The notes under the pieces are model-generated. The model had not been told where the DNA came from and searched no databases. It was given only the letters and a program-made list of their open reading frames with translations. This document shows, piece by piece, positions 11,799-27,726 of a stretch of 64,000 bases of DNA (positions within the stretch are counted from its first letter, which is position 1; the number at the start of each line of letters is the position of its first letter). The position numbers and the translations under genes are program-made. This DNA is from a bacterium (GTDB taxonomy: Bacteria; UBA8248), in assembly GCA_965221165.1 (NCBI GenBank), contig CBDCRP010000003.1, positions 1,888,001 to 1,952,000 on the forward strand, given 5' to 3'.

Positions 11799-13865
11799 AT
11801 GCGATTCGCGGTCGATACGGGCGGAACCTTCACCGACCTCGTGCTGGAGGACAATCGGGGCCGCCTCCACATGTTCAAGGCCCCCACGACGCCACACGAT
11901 CCGGTGGAGGGTATCCTCGCGGCGATCGAGGCCGCCGCAGAAGCGCTCTCGACGAGCACCCGCGAACTCCTCGCCCAGGGCGAGCTCTTCATCCACGGCA
12001 CCACCCACGCCACCAACGCCATCGTGACGGGCAACACCGCCAGGACCGCCTTTCTCACCACGGAGGGACATCCCGACATTCTCGTGCTGCGCGAGGGCGG
12101 GCGCATGGAGCCGTTCAACTTCCTGGTGCCGTTTCCGAAACCCTACGTCCCGCGCGCGCTCACCTACGAGGTGCACGAGCGCATCGGCGCGGACGGAAGC
12201 GTGTACGAACCGCTGGATGAGGCGGGCGTTCTCACCATCATCGAGGAGTTGAAAGAAAAAGAGGTGGAGGCCGTGGCCGTTTCTCTATTGTGGTCCACCG
12301 TGAACCCGGCGCACGAAATCGGCGTGGGCGAATTGCTGAATAAACATTTGAAGGACGTTCCCTTCACCCTCTCCCACGTCTTAAACCCCATTCTCCGCGA
12401 ATACCGCCGCGCGTCTTCGACCTGCATCGACGCCTCCTTGAAACCCTTGATGTCCCGCTACATCGGCGGCTTGCAGGAGAGGCTAAAGACAGCGGGCTTC
12501 GGCGGGAGGCTTTTGATGCTCACCTCGAAGGGCGGGGTGATGGACGCGGGCGAACTCGCGGAAGCGCCCATCCACTCGGTGGGTTCGGGACCGTCGATGG
12601 CGCCCATCGCGGGCAGGCATTTTTCGCGCGCCGACGCCAGGGCCGCCACGGCGATAGTGGCCGACACCGGCGGCACCACGTATGACGTGAGCCTCGTGCG
12701 CCGGGGCGAGATACCCATGTCGCCAGAAACCTGGCTCGGCCAGCGCTACAGGGGACACATTCTGGGCTTTCCCTCCGTGGACGTGAAGAGCATCGGCGCA
12801 GGAGGAGGGAGCATCGCCTGGGTCGATGAGGGCGGACTCTTACACGTGGGGCCGCAGAGCGCAGGCGCGGAACCGGGGCCCGCCTGCTACGGACGGGGCG
12901 GCACGCGCCCCACCCTCACGGACGCCTCTTTGGTGCTGGGCCACATCGACCCGGACTACTTCCTGGGCGGCGCGATGACGCTCGACCCCTCCCAAGCCGA
13001 GAAAGCCATATCGAAAGACGTGGCCGAACCTCTGGGGCTATCCCTTCAAGAGGCGGCCTCGGCCATCCTGCGTCTCGCGACGGAGAACATGGTGGGCGCC
13101 ATCGAGGAGATCACCATCCACCAGGGCATCGACCCCAGGGGCGCGGTCTTGATCGGCGGCGGAGGGGCTGCGGGACTCAACTCCGTGGCCATCGCCAAGC
13201 GCCTGGGCTGCCAGGGACTCGTCATCCCCGAGGTGGGCGCTGCCCTCTCCGCAGCGGGCGCGATGATGAGCGATTTGCACGCCGATTACCGCTCGATGTT
13301 CTTCACCATCACGGACAGGTTCGACTTCAAGGGTGCGAACGCAGTTTTAAGAAAACTGGACGAGCGATGCCGCGCCTTCATCCGGGGTCCGGGCAAGGGG
13401 GCGGTGGAGAGCGCAACCGAGTTCTACGTCGAGGCGCGCTACAAGCACCAGATATGGGAGATCGATTTGGGGCTGCCCATCAACCGGTTCCGCTCGAAAA
13501 AAGACGTGGAGAGCGCGCGCGCGGCGTTCGACGAAGTGCACGAGGAGGTGTTCGCCTTCCGCGATCCGTCCTCGGAGGTGGAATTCGTCGGCTGGCGCGC
13601 CGTGGCGCGGTGTAAACTGAGAAAAGGCCGTCTCGGCAGGCTCGTGCGCGAGGCGATCCATGAGACGACGCTGCCCAAGAGGCGCAAGGCCTATTTCGCG
13701 GGCAAAGGACTCGTGAACGCCCGCGTGGCGGCGTTTGATTCCATGAAGCCGGGTGAGGCGATGCGCGGCCCGGCCATCATCGAATCGCCGTTCACGACGG
13801 TGGTCATCGACCCCGGCGCCAAGGCCGAACGCACGAGAAGCGGCAGCCTCTTCATCACGCTCTAG
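11799..13865 (+). CDS. Hydantoinase/5-oxoprolinase subunit A (ATP-binding)
   Basis: DTGGTFTD, HGTTHATNA, SGPS, DTGGTTYD, IGAGGGSIA, GPQSAGAEPGPACY. Confidence 0.95.
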   Translation: MRFAVDTGGTFTDLVLEDNRGRLHMFKAPTTPHDPVEGILAAIEAAAEALSTSTRELLAQGELFIHGTTHATNAIVTGNTARTAFLTTEGHPDILVLREGGRMEPFNFLVPFPKPYVPRALTYEVHERIGADGSVYEPLDEAGVLTIIEELKEKEVEAVAVSLLWSTVNPAHEIGVGELLNKHLKDVPFTLSHVLNPILREYRRASSTCIDASLKPLMSRYIGGLQERLKTAGFGGRLLMLTSKGGVMDAGELAEAPIHSVGSGPSMAPIAGRHFSRADARAATAIVADTGGTTYDVSLVRRGEIPMSPETWLGQRYRGHILGFPSVDVKSIGAGGGSIAWVDEGGLLHVGPQSAGAEPGPACYGRGGTRPTLTDASLVLGHIDPDYFLGGAMTLDPSQAEKAISKDVAEPLGLSLQEAASAILRLATENMVGAIEEITIHQGIDPRGAVLIGGGGAAGLNSVAIAKRLGCQGLVIPEVGAALSAAGAMMSDLHADYRSMFFTITDRFDFKGANAVLRKLDERCRAFIRGPGKGAVESATEFYVEARYKHQIWEIDLGLPINRFRSKKDVESARAAFDEVHEEVFAFRDPSSEVEFVGWRAVARCKLRKGRLGRLVREAIHETTLPKRRKAYFAGKGLVNARVAAFDSMKPGEAMRGPAIIESPFTTVVIDPGAKAERTRSGSLFITL

Positions 13866-13874
13866 GAGCAGGAT

Positions 13875-15677
13875 ATGGCGAGAGCAAAAACCGGACGCGC
13901 GAAGCAAAAGACCAAACTAGACCCCATCACCCTGGCCGTGCTGCACAAGCGTTTCGACGCCGTGACGACCAAAATGGCGAACACTCTCTTGCGCACGGGC
14001 CGCTCGGGCGTGTTGAATCTGGCGCGCGATTTTTCCACCTCCGTCGTGACGCGCGACTGCGAACTCCTGACGGGCGCGGAATCACTCCCCATCCACCATT
14101 TGAGCGGGGCGGACCTGATGGCCCGCTCGATGATGGATTTACACCCGGACCTCAAGCGAGGCGACGCCTATCTGCACAACTCGCCCTACCACGGCTGCTC
14201 GCATCCTGCGGATCACACCATCCTCGTGCCCGTCATCGACAAGAAGGGCGTCCATCAGTTCACCGTGTGGGTGAAGGCCCACCAGGCGGATTGCGGGTGC
14301 AGCCAGCCCACCACCTACATGGGCCACGCGCGCGACGTATATGAGGAGGGCGCGCTCATCTTCCCGCCCACCAAGGTGCAGACGAACTACGAGGACAACG
14401 AGGATTTCATCAACTTCTGCCGGATGCGCATCCGCGTGCCGGAGCAGTGGTACGGCGATTACCTCGCCATGATAGGCGCAGCGCGAATCGGCGAGCGCGA
14501 GGTGCTCGCCATGAGCGATGAATACGGCTGGGAGACGCTCCACGATTTCTCCAAAGAGTGGTTCGACTACAGCGAGAAACTCATGATCTCCGCCATCCGC
14601 AAGCTGCCCACAGGGGAGGCCACCGCCCACAGCACGCACGACCCCGTGCCCGGAACGCCGGATGAGGGAATCCCCATCACCGCGCACGTCCGGATCGACA
14701 ACAAGAAGGCCACCATCGAGGTGGATTTGCGCGACAACCCCGACGCCATGCCCTGCGGCCTCAACCTGAGCGAGGCCTGCGCGCGCACGGGCGCGATGAT
14801 AGGCGTGTTCAACAGCATCGACGACATCGTGCCCACGAACGCGGGCAGCTTCCGCCGCGTGAACGTGCTGATTCGCGATGGCTCCGTCGCGGGCGGGGGC
14901 AAGCACCCCACTTCCATGTCCGTTGCCACCACCAACCTGGCCGACCGCGTGACGAACCCCGTGCAGCGCGCGTTCTCGAAGATTCAGGACGGCATCGGCC
15001 TGGCGGAGTGCGGGCCGATTTTCCCGGCCTCGATGGGCGTCATCTCGGGCTTCGACCCCAGGAATGACAACGAGCCGTTCGTGAACCATCTTTTCCTAAT
15101 GGTCACCGGGGGAGCCGGGGCGGGCAAGACGGACGCCTGGCTCACGATTCTGCACGCGGGCAACGCAGGCATGTGCTTCGTGGACAGCATCGAACTGGAC
15201 GAACTCCACTTTCCCATCTACATCAAAACCAGAAGGCTCATGCCCGATACCGAGGGCGCGGGCAGGACGATAGGCGCGCCTTCTGGCTATTGCGAATACG
15301 GCCCCGTGGGCGGGGGGGACCTGGAAGTCGTCTACGTGTCGGACGGCGCGGTAAATGCTTCCAAGGGTACGCTCGGCGGGCTGAACGGGGCGGTTTGCCA
15401 GAACTTCCTCATGCGCGAGGACGGGTCTCTGGAGGATCTGCCCGGCTGTGCGGACATCATCCTGAAACCCGGCGAGAACGTGGCTTCTTACTGCACGGGC
15501 GGGGGCGGCTACGGCCCGCCGCACGAGCGGCCCGTCGAAAAGGTGCAAAACGACGTGGAGGAGAAGTGGATCACCAAAGAGCGCGCCTGGAAGGTCTACG
15601 GCGTCGCCATCGACGAGGCGGGCGAGGTGGATGAGGCCAGGACCAAGCGGAGAAGGAAGAGGCTGAGCTCAGCATAA
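13875..15677 (+). CDS. Hydantoinase B/oxoprolinase subunit
   Basis: LDPITLAV, NSPYHGCSHPAD, KAHQADCG, C-terminal GGGGYGPP; AGGAG RBS. Confidence 0.95.
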   Translation: MARAKTGRAKQKTKLDPITLAVLHKRFDAVTTKMANTLLRTGRSGVLNLARDFSTSVVTRDCELLTGAESLPIHHLSGADLMARSMMDLHPDLKRGDAYLHNSPYHGCSHPADHTILVPVIDKKGVHQFTVWVKAHQADCGCSQPTTYMGHARDVYEEGALIFPPTKVQTNYEDNEDFINFCRMRIRVPEQWYGDYLAMIGAARIGEREVLAMSDEYGWETLHDFSKEWFDYSEKLMISAIRKLPTGEATAHSTHDPVPGTPDEGIPITAHVRIDNKKATIEVDLRDNPDAMPCGLNLSEACARTGAMIGVFNSIDDIVPTNAGSFRRVNVLIRDGSVAGGGKHPTSMSVATTNLADRVTNPVQRAFSKIQDGIGLAECGPIFPASMGVISGFDPRNDNEPFVNHLFLMVTGGAGAGKTDAWLTILHAGNAGMCFVDSIELDELHFPIYIKTRRLMPDTEGAGRTIGAPSGYCEYGPVGGGDLEVVYVSDGAVNASKGTLGGLNGAVCQNFLMREDGSLEDLPGCADIILKPGENVASYCTGGGGYGPPHERPVEKVQNDVEEKWITKERAWKVYGVAIDEAGEVDEARTKRRRKRLSSA

Positions 15678-15732
15678 AACTTTTCCGGGATTACATAGAA
15701 AACACGGGAAACCGCAGGGGGAGGAGATACCC

Positions 15733-16476
15733 ATGAAGCTAAAGGACAAGGTCGCCATCGTCACCGGCGGCTCGCAGGGAATCGGCGAGGCCGTCTGCCG
15801 ACGCTTCGCGGAAGAGGGCGCCAAGGTCGCCATCGTGAACCGAACGGCGGAAAAAGGAGAGGCGCTTGCGGCGGAGATCGGCGAGGCGGCCAAGGCGTTT
15901 CCGTGCGACGTATCGAACAAGGCGGCCGTGGACGCCATGGTGGCGGCCGTGGTGGATGCGTTCGGCACGGTGGACATCCTCGTCGGCAACGCCGGCATCA
16001 TGATCAACAAGGAACTCGAAGACTACAGCGAGCAGGAGTGGGACGACACCATCGACATCAATCTCAAGGGCAACTTCCTGCTCTCACAGGCCATCGTCCC
16101 CATCATGAAGGAGAAGAAGTACGGGAAGATCATCTTCGTCGCCTCCATCGCCGCCACGCACGCCTTTCCCAACGCGGTGCCCTATTGCGCGAGCAAGGGC
16201 GGGGTCTACATGGTCACGCGCGCGCTTGCGGCGGAGATTTCGAAATGCGGCATCAACGTGAACTGCATCTCGCCGGGCAACACGGCCACGCCGCTGAACC
16301 AGCACCTACAGGACGACCCCGAGTTCGTGAAGCTCATGGCGAGCTACACGCCCACGGGCCGGGCGTACATATCGACGGCGGAGATGGCGGGCGCGGCGGT
16401 GTTCCTGGCGTCAGACGACGCGAGCGCGGTGCACGGCCTCGACCTGATCGTGGACGACGGCTGGTGCGCGATTTAA
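15733..16476 (+). CDS. Short-chain dehydrogenase/reductase (FabG-like)
   Basis: TGGSQGIG, GNAG, YCASKGG, VNCISPG. Confidence 0.93.
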   Translation: MKLKDKVAIVTGGSQGIGEAVCRRFAEEGAKVAIVNRTAEKGEALAAEIGEAAKAFPCDVSNKAAVDAMVAAVVDAFGTVDILVGNAGIMINKELEDYSEQEWDDTIDINLKGNFLLSQAIVPIMKEKKYGKIIFVASIAATHAFPNAVPYCASKGGVYMVTRALAAEISKCGINVNCISPGNTATPLNQHLQDDPEFVKLMASYTPTGRAYISTAEMAGAAVFLASDDASAVHGLDLIVDDGWCAI

Positions 16477-16496
16477 GCCGGGGTTGAAAAACCGCG

Positions 16497-17402
16497 ATGC
16501 CAGGCGCGCTCAAATCGCTCAGAACCCCCGCGCTCGAAATCGGCTATCAAGAGGCGGGCGATGAAACAGCGCCGTCCGTCATCCTCGTGCACGGCTTTCC
16601 CGACGATGCGAAAACGTGGGACCGCGTCGTCCCCATCCTGAACGATGCGGGCCTGAGGACGCTTTGCCCCTACGTGCGCGGCTACGGACCGACGCGGTTC
16701 TTAGACCCAGCGACGCCCAGAAGCGCCCAGTACACCGCCATCGCCTCCGACATCACGGCTTTTGCCGACGCACTGGGGCTCGAACGCTTCACGCTCGTGG
16801 GGCACGACTGGGGCGCGCGCGCTTCTTATTGCGTAGCGGCCATGCATCCCAAGCGGCTGAACGCCCTCATCGTGAGTCCTGCGGGCTACGGCACGGGACG
16901 CCCCCAGCAGCGGATGTCGGTCGATCAGGTGCGCGCGTACTGGTATCAATGGTTTTTCTGCACCGAACGCGGACGCGATGCGCTCGGAGCGGACGCCGCC
17001 GGTTTTTGCCGCGAACTCTGGCGCACATGGTCGCCGGGCTGGAACTTTTCGGACGCTGAATTCGAGGCGACGGCGCAATCCTTCGATAATCCCGATTTCT
17101 TGGGAATAGTCATGCATTCGTATCGCTACCGGTGGGGATACGAAAAACCAGACCCCAGGTATGAGGACGCGGAAAGTTTCATGCGCGGTCTGCCCGCCAT
17201 ATCGACGCCGACCGTTCTCATACAAGGCGCCGAAGACGGGGCGTCGCGGCCCGAGAGCTCGGAGGGTAAGGAAGGACATTTCACAGGCGGGTACCGGAGG
17301 ATTCTGGTGGAGGGCGCGGGGCACTTCGCCCAGCGCGAGAAGCCGGAGGTCTTCGCCGCCGCCATTCTGGAAATTGCGAAAAGAGCCCTGAATAATGGAT
17401 GA
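16497..17402 (+). CDS. Alpha/beta hydrolase, epoxide-hydrolase-like
   Basis: HGFPD oxyanion motif, GHDWGA (Asp nucleophile), GAGHF. Confidence 0.9.
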   Translation: MPGALKSLRTPALEIGYQEAGDETAPSVILVHGFPDDAKTWDRVVPILNDAGLRTLCPYVRGYGPTRFLDPATPRSAQYTAIASDITAFADALGLERFTLVGHDWGARASYCVAAMHPKRLNALIVSPAGYGTGRPQQRMSVDQVRAYWYQWFFCTERGRDALGADAAGFCRELWRTWSPGWNFSDAEFEATAQSFDNPDFLGIVMHSYRYRWGYEKPDPRYEDAESFMRGLPAISTPTVLIQGAEDGASRPESSEGKEGHFTGGYRRILVEGAGHFAQREKPEVFAAAILEIAKRALNNG

Positions 17403-18291
17403 AAAGAGCGCGTTTTATATCTGCTACGTGAACGGCGAATACGTTACAGCCTCTGAGGCCAAGGTCTCCGCCTTCGACCACGGGTTTCTCTACGGGGACG
17501 GTCTTTTCGAGTCCATGACGGTGACGAACCGGCGCATTTTCAAATTCGACGAGCATCTTGACCGCATGGAACGCTCCGCGCGCGTGCTCAAGCTCGAACC
17601 CCCCGAGACGCGCAAGCGAATCGCCGAGATCGTGAAGGAATGCGTCCGAAGGTCCGGGGTGGACGACGTCTACCTGCGCGTCGTCATCTCGCGTGGGGCG
17701 GGCTACCCCCTGCTCGACCCGAGGGTAGTGGATAAGGCGACGCTCGCCGTGCTCCTGCACGACCCCGCCCCGCCGCCCGAGACGGGTTCGAGCTACAAGG
17801 CGAAGGGTGCGGGCCTGAGACTCAAGACGGCGGGTGTTCGCAAAGCGCCTTCCGAGTCCTTCGAGGCGCGCGTGAAATCGCTGAATTACCTCAACAACGT
17901 GATGGCGAGAATAGAAGCCGTCGAATCGGGATTCGATGAGGCGATTCTCCTCGACGTGCGCGGCTTCGTTGCGGAGGCCCCGGGGGAGAACGTCTTCGTC
18001 GTGAAGGACGGCGTCTTAAGAACGCCCAAGGCGCACAACGTGCTGGACGGCATCACCAGAAAAACCGTGCTCGAAATCGCCGCCGAGGCGGGGATTCCGG
18101 CGGAGGAGGCGGACCTCACGCTCTATGATCTCTACACGGCGGATGAGTGTTTTCTCACCTCATCCTTCAGCCGGGTGCACGCGGTGGCCGAGGTGGACGG
18201 GCGGCCCATTCCGGCGCCCGGCCCCATCACGCAAAAGCTGCGCGCCGATATTCTCGAGATGGAAAGAACACAAGGCGAGCCGATAGACTAA
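17395..18291 (+). CDS. PLP fold-type IV aminotransferase (BCAT-like)
   Basis: DHGFLYGDGLFE, HLDR, YLR, VKSLNY, EAPGENVF, LDGITR, LYTADECF. Confidence 0.92.
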   Translation: MDEKSAFYICYVNGEYVTASEAKVSAFDHGFLYGDGLFESMTVTNRRIFKFDEHLDRMERSARVLKLEPPETRKRIAEIVKECVRRSGVDDVYLRVVISRGAGYPLLDPRVVDKATLAVLLHDPAPPPETGSSYKAKGAGLRLKTAGVRKAPSESFEARVKSLNYLNNVMARIEAVESGFDEAILLDVRGFVAEAPGENVFVVKDGVLRTPKAHNVLDGITRKTVLEIAAEAGIPAEEADLTLYDLYTADECFLTSSFSRVHAVAEVDGRPIPAPGPITQKLRADILEMERTQGEPID

Positions 18292-18682: not shown

Positions 18683-18972
18683 CGAATCCGACCGAGGAGG
18701 AAGGATTCGCCGACCGGGGAGAGTCACTTCTCGTAGGGGCGGACCTATGCGTCCGTCCGCATGTCGTTTTAGTTGTCAAACCGGTTGTAGGGGACGCATA
18801 TATGCGTCCCGTGGTTTGACGGCCAAAGACAAAGGGACGCATGTATGCGTCCCCTACACTCCAAATGACCTGTTCGGGATGTTCGACCGATAGAGCAACA
18901 GATATGTGTACCCTCCCGTCTCAGACGGCGAACCCTCCTTCCTCAGTCGGGTTCGACCCTCAAGGGGGGAGT
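18683..18972. repeat. Intergenic repeat cluster: GTAG-type REPs flanked by two oppositely oriented 27-nt hairpin modules
   Basis: GTAGGGGCGGACCTATGCGTCCGTCC, GTAGGGGACGCATATATGCGTCCC and the inverse GGGACGCATGTATGCGTCCCTAC; hairpin modules at 18683-18709 (+) and 18929-18955 (-). Confidence 0.85.
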
Positions 18973-18998
18973 GAATCGAGAAGCCGCGGGCGGTTGTT

Positions 18999-19892
18999 CT
19001 AGTCCAGATCGGGCCGTTCCTCATCCTGATAGTGCCCCAAACCCTTGGGCGCGGCGCCGTTGTTGCGAAGCACGTGCATGGGCGCAGGAACGAGCGGCTT
19101 CCACTGGGTTTCCTCAGGGGGCTCGGGCCACTCGTGAGAGAGATGCTGGTAGGCGTTCGGGCCATCTGCGGCTTCTAAATGCGCGCACATATCGTCGCAC
19201 ACCGAGCGCTGGCCTTCTCTGTCGCCCACGTCTCCCAACATGCGTCCGAAGGGATACTGGATGAACACCGCCCTCGGCACGCAGACCTTCTCCGAGACTT
19301 CAGGCTGATTGCATATCGAGACGGTGGCGATTCCCAAATCTTCCAATCTTCTTTGCAGCAGGCTCACGGACCGCATGCAAAGCGGTCAGACGGGGATGAG
19401 CAAGGCCGCGTCCACGCCCTCTGCGTGCATCTTCTCGGCCATCAGGGGGGCCGTTTTCTTCATTAGGGGATGGAAGTTGGGCGTATAGCCCATGGTGGAG
19501 TAGAGGGTGTCGGCCAGTGCGCCGATTTTTCCCTCGCGCTCGTAATCCAGGAAGATATCCACCGGAAACGAGACGTTCCTGTCGCGTTTCAGATATTCGG
19601 TGTTGATGTGTAAGTGCGAGTATTCGCAATCATCCTGAGCGGCCGTTTTGGGAATCTCCCGGTGCGTGGGGTCTCCCCAGTGCGGCTCGCGCCACTCGCG
19701 CTCATAATCGAAGGAAACGTCTCCCTTCATGAATATGCCCGCCGTGGAGACGAGGGTTACCTTGCACTCCGAGAGCGGTTTTCCCAGCGGCGTCCAAGGC
19801 GTCTTGGCCGGATCGGCAGGCCGCATCGCGCCGATGCGCGTTTTGCTGCCGGGATAATAGACGTATCCATCGACTGTCGTGATTGGTGACAT
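18999..19892 (-). CDS. Selenoprotein, glycine/sarcosine/betaine/D-proline reductase B-like (297 aa, Sec169 in UxxC)
   Basis: Track ORFs 19386..19892 and 18999..19376 are in the same frame, joined by GTC-TGA-CCG-CTT-TGC-ATG (V-U-P-L-C-M). Family motifs PWTPLGKPLSECKVTLVSTAG, DRNVSFP, EGVDAALL and GIATV...VPRAVFIQYPFG lie on both sides of the UGA. Confidence 0.88.
19351..19382 (-). promoter_or_regulatory. Bacterial SECIS-like hairpin
   Basis: Starts 3 nt after the UGA: CUUUGCA-UGCGGUCC-GUGA-GCCUGC-UGCAAAG, with a perfect 7-bp lower stem and an apical-loop G at +19 from the UGA. Confidence 0.72.
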
Positions 19893-19978
19893 GGGAGTTT
19901 TACTCCTCCTCTCGCACTATTCTTATCGTCTCGCCCGCAGAAAACCGGGCCTTGCGTTCTTTGTCCTCATACCATGAA

Positions 19979-20809
19979 TCAATACATCGTATACAAAACG
20001 CACAGGAGTTGATTCGCCAACTCCGCGTTTCCTTCGATTTCAAAGCGGCCGGAAATCTCCATGGCCCCGCGCTTCGCGCGGCCGTATATCATCAGCAGGT
20101 GCGCCTCGCCGTCCGCGGTGATTGTGGCGTCGTGCGCGCCCGACGTGTCGGCGGATTCTTCCGCCTTCTCGCCGGCGACGGTGAGCGTCCACGCGCGATC
20201 GGGCATCTTTGAGCGGAACAGGAAGCGACCATCGAAGGGCGGGTTCTCGCGGACGCCGAAAAGACGGCTCTGGGTCGAGGGCAGGAAGCTCATGATTCCC
20301 TCCACGCTCTGAGATGCAACGCAAGCCTCCGGATCCTCTCCGTAGCGGATGTCCCAGTCGTGCATCGCCAGTTCGACGAGCCTGAGCCCGATCCAGGCGT
20401 CGAGCCGCGTCAGCCCCCGGGGGTGAAAACCGTGCTTGCCCAAGTCGTTAGCAGTAATGTCCCCGAGCGCGCCGTTCACCTCGGCGGCGGAGACGTCGAA
20501 CGCATCCATCATCTCCTCCCTGGGCAGGGCCATGAGTTCCTCGCCCCTGGCGCCGCGGATGGCGAAAAACTCCTTCACGTTGCTACCGTAGGGCGGCTCG
20601 GGCGGCAGGCCCTCCAAGGCCCTGCGAATCGAGTTCGCATAAAAATCGCCCCCCGTCGCCAGGTGGGAGACGGCGTGACGCGCCCGCCAGCCGGGGCAGA
20701 ACGTGTCCACCTCCCAGCGCGCGTCCGAAAAACCGCGCCAGCACGCCGAGAGGCGCTCGGTTTCCGATTTCACCAAAGCGACTCGAGAAAGTTGTTCTTC
20801 AGGGCTCAC
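19979..20809 (-). CDS. DinB/mycothiol-dependent maleylpyruvate isomerase family (MDMPI-like) protein with SCP2-like C-terminus
   Basis: TFCPGWRARHAVSHL and ELAMHDWDI metal-binding His pattern; GGAGG RBS before GTG 20809. Confidence 0.82.
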   Translation of the reverse strand: MSPEEQLSRVALVKSETERLSACWRGFSDARWEVDTFCPGWRARHAVSHLATGGDFYANSIRRALEGLPPEPPYGSNVKEFFAIRGARGEELMALPREEMMDAFDVSAAEVNGALGDITANDLGKHGFHPRGLTRLDAWIGLRLVELAMHDWDIRYGEDPEACVASQSVEGIMSFLPSTQSRLFGVRENPPFDGRFLFRSKMPDRAWTLTVAGEKAEESADTSGAHDATITADGEAHLLMIYGRAKRGAMEISGRFEIEGNAELANQLLCVLYTMY

Positions 20810-26988: not shown

Positions 26989-27588
26989 TCACTTGAAGGG
27001 CATGATGGAGCCTGTGCGCTCCATGGGTTTTTCCATGCGCCAGAGCTGTCTTTCGAGTGCCTCTTCCGAACAGGTGGCGAGCATGAGGGAGCGCGCCATG
27101 TGGCGGCTCGGGAGCCTGCGCCCGCCCCGCGTGAGCCGGGAGGGTTCCGCGCCGATGGTGAGGCACTTATCGGGATGCGCCTTGAGGCTCAGGCGGTAGT
27201 TCTCAAAGCGCCAGTTCTGAAGGGCCGTGCCGTCGCACTTTCCGAGCACGAGCTTCGCCCCGTCTGCTGCGGAAGCGGCGGCGACGCACAACCCGTATTC
27301 GGGCATCCTGAGCCGGCCCCTCATGACGGCGGCGGGGTCGAAATGCTCATCGAGGTTCCAGATGCCCTCCTTGCAGGTGTGCGCGACGAGGGCGGCCTCG
27401 GTATTGACGCGGGAGCGGTGCCCCGGAATGTCGACGCAGTGAAACCTCGGCTCATCCAGCGGATAAAACGCTTTAATAAAAACGACGTCCTTCCCGGCGG
27501 CCTGAGCCTGATTCAGGGCGAACGCGCAGAGCACAAAAACCGCCGCCATATACGTCATCACCGCGCACCGAGCGATACGCCGAATCAT
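26989..27588 (-). CDS. Secreted protein with ricin-type beta-trefoil-like domain
   Basis: AAGGAG RBS; signal peptide ending AQA; CVDI, GLCV...LGKCD...QNW, DKCLT...C...QLW repeats. Confidence 0.72.
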   Translation of the reverse strand: MIRRIARCAVMTYMAAVFVLCAFALNQAQAAGKDVVFIKAFYPLDEPRFHCVDIPGHRSRVNTEAALVAHTCKEGIWNLDEHFDPAAVMRGRLRMPEYGLCVAAASAADGAKLVLGKCDGTALQNWRFENYRLSLKAHPDKCLTIGAEPSRLTRGGRRLPSRHMARSLMLATCSEEALERQLWRMEKPMERTGSIMPFK

Positions 27589-27726
27589 CTCCGTCTCCTT
27601 ATCGAGAATGAAGCGGGAGGCAAAGAAATCGTACGCGAAAAGGCTTCCCGGAAAGGATTCTTGAATCTCCACACGGATCATCCCCAGCCATATCGCGGAA
27701 ACTCCTTCCGTTCAAAACGCACCATA

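What the first reader, a model, noticed from the sequence alone, without database searches (positions are those of the whole stretch)
18999..19892. Hidden selenoprotein: stand-alone GrdB/PrdB-like protein with UxxC motif and SECIS
Seen: two ORFs in the same frame are separated only by TGA-CCG-CTT-TGC, giving ...ALLIPV-U-PL-C-MRSVS.... A hairpin with a perfect 7-bp base (CUUUGCA/UGCAAAG) starts 3 nt after the UGA and has an apical G at +19. Known: bacterial Sec insertion uses a hairpin just 3' of the UGA, and GrdB carries Sec in a UxxC motif. Inference: this is one 297-aa selenoenzyme. No grdA/C/D/E, prdA or thioredoxin genes are in the window, so its substrate and partners are probably not the clostridial Stickland ones.
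Basis: partly seen in the sequence, partly recalled or inferred. Interest (0 to 1): 0.75.

Follow-up and report, generated by a model that had tools for sequence, protein, structure and literature searches.

The report
Stand-alone PrdB-like selenoprotein gene
Two reading frames that look split by a stop codon very likely form one selenium-containing enzyme; it is an ordinary member of a long-catalogued family related to proline reductase that likely works without the usual partner proteins, on a substrate nobody has identified.

Summary
The genome has selA, selB, selD and tRNA-Sec. The TGA is kept in 22 of 22 genus loci; 80 of 80 metagenomic homologues have TGA (74) or Cys (6) there. The codons around and after the UGA are the synonymously most conserved part of the gene, and two wobble positions co-vary as a base pair. 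The protein is PrdB-like (Pfam GRDB) but scores far below the D-proline reductase cut-off, and neither PrdA nor proline racemase was found. The genome does hold two grdA-C-E-B clusters elsewhere, yet five relatives (94-100% complete) lack them and keep this gene, so it likely works independently. Best reading: a stand-alone Sec/Cys reductase that attacks a small, already activated substrate; the substrate is unknown and peroxidase-type chemistry is a close rival. Marine 'PrdB' selenoproteins have been catalogued since 2005, and this scan found the same family before in three other genomes. The one fresh lead is a tightly spaced upstream DinB/MDMPI-family gene. A real gene that a plain stop-codon reading splits in two, and ordinary.

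The parts
18999..19892 (-). PrdB-like selenoprotein gene, 297 aa with Sec at residue 169
   Evidence: frame; family; one confident model across the UGA, mean pLDDT 94.2, pTM 0.91
19386..19388 (-). In-frame TGA, inferred selenocysteine codon (U169)
   Evidence: TGA in 22 of 22 genus loci and 21 of 21 other relatives' loci; TGA 74, Cys 6 of 80 metagenomic loci
19377..19379 (-). Cys172, predicted resolving cysteine of the UxxC motif
   Evidence: TGC in 21 of 21 genus orthologues; Cys in 80 of 80 metagenomic loci
19351..19382 (-). SECIS-like hairpin (+4 to +35 after the UGA): 7-bp lower stem, imperfect upper stem, loop G at +19 (position 19367)
   Evidence: most other Sec genes examined in the genome have a similar stem with a loop G at +18 or +19
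19903..19912 (-). Shine-Dalgarno-like AGGAGG ahead of the start codon; none ahead of the internal ATG (Met173) after the UGA
   Evidence: read directly from the sequence
19979..20809 (-). Upstream co-directional DinB/MDMPI-family gene with an SCP2-like C-terminal domain; possible operon partner
   Evidence: Pfam PF11716 and PF02036, TIGR03083 over cut-off; upstream on the same strand in 20 of 21 genus loci, within 33 nt in 16
18832..18855 (-). Terminator-like 10-bp hairpin 144 nt after the stop codon
   Evidence: consensus match only

Best explanation
This is one intact gene whose UGA at codon 169 is very likely read as selenocysteine, giving a stand-alone PrdB-like reductase that is predicted to use its selenolate to attack a small substrate of unknown identity that likely carries its own leaving group. 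Shown: a single frame across the UGA, a full Sec machinery, conservation of UGA/Cys and of the downstream hairpin, and retention in genomes that lack GrdA and GrdE/PrdA. Inferred from PrdB, GrdB and FarB chemistry: Sec169 displaces the leaving group at a polarised carbon (onium nitrogen or sulfur, thioether or halide) and forms a selenoether; Cys172 cleaves it, releasing the reduced product and leaving a selenenyl-sulfide; a thioredoxin-type dithiol encoded elsewhere resets the enzyme. With no pyruvoyl subunit, no Schiff-base activation of a free amino acid would be possible. The conserved N-terminal half and the terminal extensions would supply the binding pocket. Confidence is about 0.97 for Sec read-through, 0.85 for partner independence and 0.4 for this chemistry; the figure given is for the whole account.
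For: Sec: selA 564 bits, selB 384 bits and selD 330 bits, all over cut-off; tRNA-Sec. TGA or Cys at the site in 123 of 123 close loci. Of the best 150 cluster representatives, 45 end exactly before the site and 41 read C-x-x-C. Purifying selection is alike on both sides of the UGA: synonymous/non-synonymous differences per codon 0.242/0.072 before and 0.239/0.100 after. Independence: the gene is in 22 of 22 genus genomes, the GrdE/PrdA family in 16 of 22, GrdA in 15 of 22. G001, G006, G008, G019 (98-100% complete) and G015 (94%) have neither and keep the gene at 83-91% identity. No Grd gene was found in 122 loci, 859 kb. No PrdA beyond a GrdE cross-hit and no proline racemase in G000. Chemistry: the PrdB mechanism (Sec attack, selenoether, cleavage by Cys) is stated in PMC3091704; FarB/FarE is predicted to work on fluoroacetate without a pyruvoyl group in PMC10838667. 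Invariant polar residues D62, E66, D74, R78, H93, H95 and D104 in 22 of 22 sequences of the subfamily alignment suggest a specific small-molecule site.
Against: There are no protein-level data. No substrate can be read from neighbours: gene context varies outside the genus. No solved relative exists to anchor the pocket, and I did not inspect the model's coordinates, so the pocket is inferred from conservation only. In the papers I read, every B protein with an assigned substrate has a second subunit (PrdA, GrdE/G/I, FarE), so stand-alone carbon attack has no precedent there. A review notes that the two PrdB steps are not documented in organic chemistry (PMC10298544). 27 of the 150 distant representatives have another residue (Ser 10, Gly 7, Trp 3, Asp 3, four others) at the Sec column, so the wider family is not uniformly Sec/Cys; some Gly and Trp may be UGA read under other codes (untested). 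The upper SECIS stem is weakened in this genus. No canonical glutathione, bacillithiol, mycothiol or ergothioneine synthesis marker passed cut-off in G000, so the reductant is a guess.
Confidence: 0.4

Rival explanations
1. Same selenoprotein, but a heteroatom reductase: Sec attacks the O or S of a peroxide, sulfoxide or disulfide, and Cys172 resolves it as in peroxiredoxin- or thioredoxin-type enzymes.
For: UxxC sits between a strand and a helix in the model (strand 162-166, helix 172-185). PMC1088965 lists PrdB among thiol-dependent redox selenoproteins. Peroxidase activity of GrdB is the title of Grobe et al. 2007, seen only in reference lists. It needs no partner, which fits the scattered gene contexts.
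Against: The fold gave only generic Rossmann-like alpha/beta matches, with no thioredoxin-fold protein among the listed rows (inconclusive). The large invariant N-terminal half and three paralogues kept in most genus genomes suggest substrate specificity rather than generic antioxidant work.
Confidence: 0.3
2. It works with the upstream DinB/MDMPI-family protein: that enzyme conjugates a thiol to an electrophile (or isomerises such an adduct) and the selenoprotein reductively cleaves the C-S bond.
For: The DinB/MDMPI gene is upstream on the same strand in 20 of 21 genus loci (the 21st is cut by a contig end), within 33 nt in 16, and in 4 of 14 loci from other genera, one at 24 nt despite 41% identity.
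Against: The divergent radical SAM gene is conserved alongside (17 of 21 and 3 of 14), so this may be plain synteny. It is absent from 8 of 8 loci of the 67% paralogue, 10 of 14 other relatives' loci and 73 of 80 metagenomic loci, many of them short. Another ORF sits between the two in L038 and L039. No marker for a usual low-molecular-weight thiol passed cut-off.
Confidence: 0.12
3. It is an extra substrate-binding B subunit that feeds the genome's GrdA/GrdC/GrdE clusters in trans.
For: G000 has two grdA-grdC-grdE-grdB clusters. Synergistota use many B proteins with one shared A/C system (PMC10838667).
Against: The gene is kept, with TGA and high identity, in five genus genomes of 94-100% completeness where neither GrdA nor the GrdE family was found. 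It lacks the roughly 200-residue N-terminal part of GrdB (Pfam match only to profile positions 219-344). It has its own resolving Cys, unlike the genome's two GrdB proteins.
Confidence: 0.06
4. It is a true D-proline reductase PrdB.
For: The best NCBIfam match is TIGR04483 over profile positions 17-233 of 238; UxxC motif.
Against: 116.7 bits against a cut-off of 300; no PrdA and no proline racemase in G000.
Confidence: 0.02
5. The TGA is a real stop: a pseudogene or two separate small proteins.
For: The hairpin energy is unremarkable; an in-frame ATG follows 4 codons after the TGA; databases hold both halves as separate proteins (P0002 and P0003).
Against: The TGA is fixed at the catalytic Cys column across 117 loci, with Cys as the only alternative among close homologues. 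Full-length Cys homologues exist. Selection is alike on both halves and there is no Shine-Dalgarno before the internal ATG.
Confidence: 0.02

Closest known systems
Marine 'proline reductase PrdB' selenoproteins of the Sargasso Sea and GOS surveys (PMC1088965; PMC2398784; PF07355, UxxC)
   Same: Same Pfam family and UxxC motif; abundant where GrdA and GrdB are nearly absent (42 against 1 and 1 in the Sargasso table); Sec-dominated with Cys homologues.
   Different: I did not compare those survey sequences with this protein directly. This one lies in a strongly supported clade (SH-aLRT 100) of genomes from its own class, with an E-x-x-W-G-D insert and short N- and C-terminal extensions.
D-proline reductase subunit PrdB (Acetoanaerobium/Clostridium sticklandii, 242 aa, Sec152; TIGR04483)
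   Same: Similar size and layout, UxxC, best-scoring NCBIfam model; source of the proposed selenoether and selenenyl-sulfide cycle.
   Different: Score 116.7 against cut-off 300; no PrdA or proline racemase found in the genome and no prd operon context; about 55 residues longer.
Glycine/sarcosine/betaine reductase selenoprotein B (GrdB/GrdF/GrdH; TIGR01918) and fluoroacetate reductase FarB
   Same: Shared C-terminal Sec-bearing domain (PF07355 positions 219-344 matched). FarB with FarE and betaine reductase GrdI give precedent for chemistry without a pyruvoyl group (PMC10838667).
   Different: Lacks the GrdB N-terminal part; has UxxC only, not UxxCxxC (PMC6778437); 53.1 bits against a cut-off of 65.45; no adjacent GrdE/A/C.
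UGSC-family selenoproteins (NF041046)
   Same: Seven copies in this genome. Their Sec aligns with U169 over a strand-Sec-helix-strand stretch (HHalign probability 76%, E 2.3e-5, 76 columns), which suggests a shared Sec module.
   Different: About 145 aa, without the PrdB N-terminal half; the similarity is weak and rests on 7 sequences from one genome.

Membership tests
Bacterial selenoprotein | In-frame UGA at a position where homologues have Cys | tested here: met
   74 TGA and 6 Cys of 80 metagenomic loci; 41 C-x-x-C and 45 truncations at the site among 150 representatives, 27 with other residues
Bacterial selenoprotein | SECIS hairpin just 3' of the UGA with a loop G | tested here: met
   Hairpin +4..+35 with G at +19; synonymous constraint and +6/+33 covariation; upper stem only 4 of 6 pairs; G19 is also fixed by the encoded residue, so it is not independent
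Bacterial selenoprotein | selA, selB, selC and selD in the genome | tested here: met
   selA in 21 of 22 genus genomes
Bacterial selenoprotein | Selenium incorporated in the protein | not testable with these tools
   needs labelling or proteomics
GrdB/PrdB superfamily (PF07355) | Pfam GRDB score over the gathering threshold | tested here: met
   43.9 bits against 22, residues 36-165
D-proline reductase PrdB (TIGR04483) | Score over the equivalog cut-off | tested here: not met
   116.7 against 300 bits
D-proline reductase PrdB (TIGR04483) | Pyruvoyl proprotein PrdA and proline racemase in the genome | tested here: not met
   PrdA model gives only a 19.9-bit hit inside a GrdE gene; no racemase match in G000, 96% complete
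D-proline reductase PrdB (TIGR04483) | UxxC motif | tested here: met
   U169-P-L-C172
D-proline reductase PrdB (TIGR04483) | Electron-transfer partner PrdC | not tested
   no PrdC model was searched
Glycine/sarcosine/betaine reductase protein B (TIGR01918) | About 430-aa chain, score over cut-off, UxxCxxC | tested here: not met
   297 aa; 53.1 against 65.45 bits; UxxC followed by M-R-S
Glycine/sarcosine/betaine reductase protein B (TIGR01918) | Co-occurrence with GrdA and GrdE/G/I | tested here: not met
   not linked in 122 loci; five genus genomes of 94-100% completeness keep the gene without them
Stand-alone marine 'PrdB' group of the Sargasso/GOS surveys | PF07355 homologue with UxxC and no Stickland partners | tested here: met
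   family tables in PMC1088965 and PMC2398784
Stand-alone marine 'PrdB' group of the Sargasso/GOS surveys | Same clade as the surveyed sequences | not tested
   the survey sequences and supplements were not fetched
Known structural family | Specific fold match to a solved enzyme | tested here: inconclusive
   Foldseek no match at E<=0.001; VIA-align best Z 7.7, rmsd 4.5 over 142 residues, generic alpha/beta

The most novel reading that the evidence does not exclude
The abundant marine 'PrdB' selenoproteins are not proline reductases but a separate class of one-chain, pyruvoyl-free selenium reductases built on a Sec module shared with UGSC proteins and GrdB. In this lineage the enzyme forms an operon with a DinB/MDMPI thiol transferase, and the pair conjugates and then reductively cleaves organosulfur or onium compounds, an undescribed route for C-S or C-N bond reduction in marine symbionts.
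Probability: 0.1. Interest if true: 0.7.

Novelty: new member of a known kind. Interest (0 to 1): 0.22.

Why it matters
As a gene call it corrects a routine mis-annotation: two short ORFs are one selenoprotein. The family is among the commonest marine selenoproteins and still carries the label 'proline reductase', although here its partners are demonstrably missing. I found no paper assigning it a substrate (searches; open-access library only). This genus offers a tidy system for that old question: a core, strongly conserved copy, two paralogues, natural Cys homologues that are easy to express, and relatives with and without the Grd cluster. The finding does not itself answer the question.

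Tried and rejected
Hairpin folding energy as proof of a SECIS: not above shuffles, so I relied on comparative evidence. Rfam: only a sub-threshold RsmW hit outside the gene. PDB by sequence and by fold: nothing specific; this shows neither a new fold nor a function. Fusion analysis: longer Cys homologues (356-495 aa) carry extra regions with no Pfam match apart from one HTH and one sub-threshold DUF4313 hit, so no partner was named, and they lie in other branches of the tree. Neighbourhoods of 80 metagenomic loci: recurring neighbours (nucleoside phosphorylase family, SpoIIE, MFS, MarR, unnamed ORFs) look like lineage synteny and gave no substrate (15 cluster representatives scanned, several probably antisense ORFs). 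My ORF picker mis-called strands in places, so neighbour counts come from tblastn. Viral contigs: no relative. Thiol markers GshB, BshC, MshC and EgtB: none over cut-off in G000. Promoter scan: none found. Expression: contigs of relatives from three metatranscriptome libraries (two studies) span the UGA region, but they are contigs, DNA carry-over was not controlled and no silent stretch was laid, so this is not counted as evidence. The W-G-D motif as a clade marker needs 7 changes on the tree, so it is not a clean marker. No language-model look-alike search result is available for this protein. No complex prediction was run. The taxon guess used as a search term was recalled, and one search did not confirm it.

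Full report
Verdict. It is a new member of a family catalogued since 2005, and this scan reported the same family in three other genomes. The substrate is unknown.

1. Observation. On the minus strand, 19892 to 18999 translates with TGA=U as one 297-residue frame with U169 in V-U-P-L-C; table 11 splits it into 168- and 125-aa ORFs. An AGGAGG precedes the first ATG and none precedes the internal ATG. The hairpin at +4..+35 has the 7-bp base and loop G19 described, but its energy is within the range of shuffles (z -0.16, -1.07, +0.99, -1.86).

2. Is the UGA selenocysteine? The genome (3.69 Mb, 96% complete, 8.5% contamination) has tRNA-Sec and selA, selB and selD over their cut-offs. The TGA is present in 22 of 22 genus loci and 21 of 21 loci of paralogues and more distant homologues from related genomes. 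Of the best 80 of 556 metagenomic loci, 74 have TGA and 6 a Cys codon, and all 80 have Cys three residues later. Among the best 150 of 1200 cluster representatives, 45 end exactly before the site, 41 read C-x-x-C, 9 more have Cys at the first position (some are misaligned fragments), 27 have another residue, and 28 do not cover the column or were binned as gaps, four of which also end at the site on inspection. In 21 full-length genus orthologues both halves are under similar purifying selection, the four lowest synonymous-diversity windows start at codons 165-168, and the two variable wobble positions in the lower stem co-vary (U-A 11, C-G 7, U-G 1, unpaired 2). Against a textbook SECIS, the upper stem pairs at only 4 of 6 positions in all 22 genus loci, whereas 20 of 21 other relatives' loci and 53 of 74 metagenomic TGA loci pair at 6 of 6; the genus instead has a full 7-bp lower stem in 19 of 22. 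Most other Sec genes examined in the genome show a similar stem with a loop G at +18 or +19. AlphaFold folds the read-through chain as one confident model (pLDDT 94.2, pTM 0.91). I put read-through at about 0.97.

3. What it is. Pfam GRDB matches residues 36-165 over threshold. The best NCBIfam model is D-proline reductase PrdB at 116.7 bits (cut-off 300); GrdB-type models give 49-56 bits, all under cut-off. No solved relative was found by sequence or fold. Record titles of close relatives say Nitrospinota or Nitrospinaceae MAG, or just bacterium. The gene is in 22 of 22 genus genomes at 83-100% identity, and is more conserved than its neighbours (median 93% against 83-90%). Most genus genomes also carry paralogues at about 66% and 40% identity with the same TGA. 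The gene and the 60-77% homologues form a strongly supported clade in a quick tree of 136 rows that left out short fragments and had no true PrdB in it.

4. Partners. The window has no grd or thioredoxin gene, but the genome has two grdA-grdC-grdE-grdB clusters, no GrdD over cut-off, no PrdA and no proline racemase. Co-occurrence settles independence: the GrdE/PrdA family was found in 16 of 22 and GrdA in 15 of 22 genus genomes, and G001, G006, G008, G019 and G015 (94-100% complete) have neither yet keep the gene. No Grd gene lies in any of 122 loci around homologues. The one persistent neighbour is an upstream DinB/MDMPI-family gene: 20 of 21 genus loci, within 33 nt in 16, and 4 of 14 loci from other genera; it is absent from 8 of 8 paralogue loci and 73 of 80 metagenomic loci, and a divergent radical SAM gene is similarly conserved. 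In this window the spacer is 86 nt.

5. How it likely works. Shown: single gene, Sec machinery, UxxC, independence. Inferred: Sec169 is the nucleophile and Cys172 resolves, as proposed for PrdB (PMC3091704, passages). Without a pyruvoyl subunit, the substrate should carry its own leaving group, as argued for fluoroacetate and betaine reductases (PMC10838667, passages). Invariant acidic, His and Arg residues in the N-terminal half would form the site. A thioredoxin is encoded elsewhere. I give this 0.4, a peroxidase/sulfoxide/disulfide reductase 0.3, a DinB-coupled thioether route 0.12, a trans-acting Grd subunit 0.06, true PrdB 0.02 and a real stop 0.02. The pocket was not inspected in the model, and a review doubts the PrdB steps on chemical grounds (PMC10298544, passages).

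6. What is known. PrdB (UxxC) was the third most abundant selenoprotein family in the Sargasso Sea, 42 genes against 1 GrdA and 1 GrdB (PMC1088965, passages and tables), and had 235 Sec and 110 Cys sequences in GOS (PMC2398784, passages and tables). A 2026 review describes PrdB only as the clostridial enzyme in the passages I saw (PMC13188914). The UxxCxxC motif of GrdB/F/H is from PMC6778437 (passages). Grobe et al. 2007 on GrdB peroxidase activity was seen as a title in reference lists only. PMC10839748 (passages) added nothing. No supplements were read; those of the two surveys would show whether their sequences fall in this clade. Seven searches turned up no paper that assigns a substrate to partner-less PrdB-like proteins; the library lacks most subscription papers.

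7. Novelty and score. It works like PrdB in its proposed Sec/Cys cycle, but fails two membership tests for D-proline reductase. It is filed as a new member of the known stand-alone PrdB-like selenoproteins. Interest 0.22. The boldest reading not excluded is a pyruvoyl-free C-S or C-N reductase paired with a DinB thiol transferase and sharing its Sec module with UGSC proteins (HHalign 76%, E 2.3e-5): probability 0.1, interest 0.7 if true.

Noticed in passing
L018:9407-10311 (G000:C2:1211409-1212283): The 67%-identical paralogue is frameshifted about 20 codons after its UGA. Contigs of two runs of one sample match the shifted form with no gap, beside an unshifted form from another strain or species. 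G007 shares this indel and has a second; G022 has a different one. This suggests recent decay in the three closest genomes, while the other genus genomes searched list a full-length copy.
   Followed up: partly
L016:9553-14608 and L017:8165-12600 (G000:C3 near 1621500-1626600 and 1442150-1446700): Two grdA-grdC-grdE-grdB clusters with no GrdD over cut-off. Both GrdB proteins read U-G-T/S-G-T with no following cysteines; the GrdE proteins look to lack the pyruvoyl-forming cysteine (position recalled, sequences).
   Followed up: partly
G000, seven places including L143-L145: Seven UGSC-family genes, each with one TGA and a stem at about +13. With SelD, two GrdA, two GrdB, three PrdB-like and one thioredoxin-like gene, at least 16 Sec-type genes were seen here. 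UGSC Sec aligns weakly with U169 of the PrdB-like family.
   Followed up: partly
L019:9029-9829 (G000:C2:1459031-1459714): Third PrdB-like paralogue (40% identity, U-G-L-C), followed on the same strand by a cysteine-dioxygenase-like gene and an alpha/beta hydrolase.
   Followed up: partly
window 18700-18975: Palindromic, repeat-like DNA between the converging CsaA-like gene and this gene; many run contigs match only short pieces here and run on unlike, and relatives carry various inserted ORFs at this spot. Probably dispersed small repeats.
   Followed up: no
window 11799-18291: Co-directional catabolic-looking run on the plus strand: hydantoinase/oxoprolinase A and B (best but sub-cut-off match to caprolactamase), SDR, alpha/beta hydrolase and class IV aminotransferase; largely syntenic in the genus.
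   Followed up: no
window 26989-27681 (-): 230-aa protein with a ricin-type beta-trefoil lectin domain.
   Followed up: no
L045:4893-5441 and L048:5473-6459: In two genomes of another genus a fumarylacetoacetate-hydrolase-family gene converges on the PrdB-like gene, with the MDMPI-family gene on its other side; both families occur in gentisate-type pathways (recalled).
   Followed up: no
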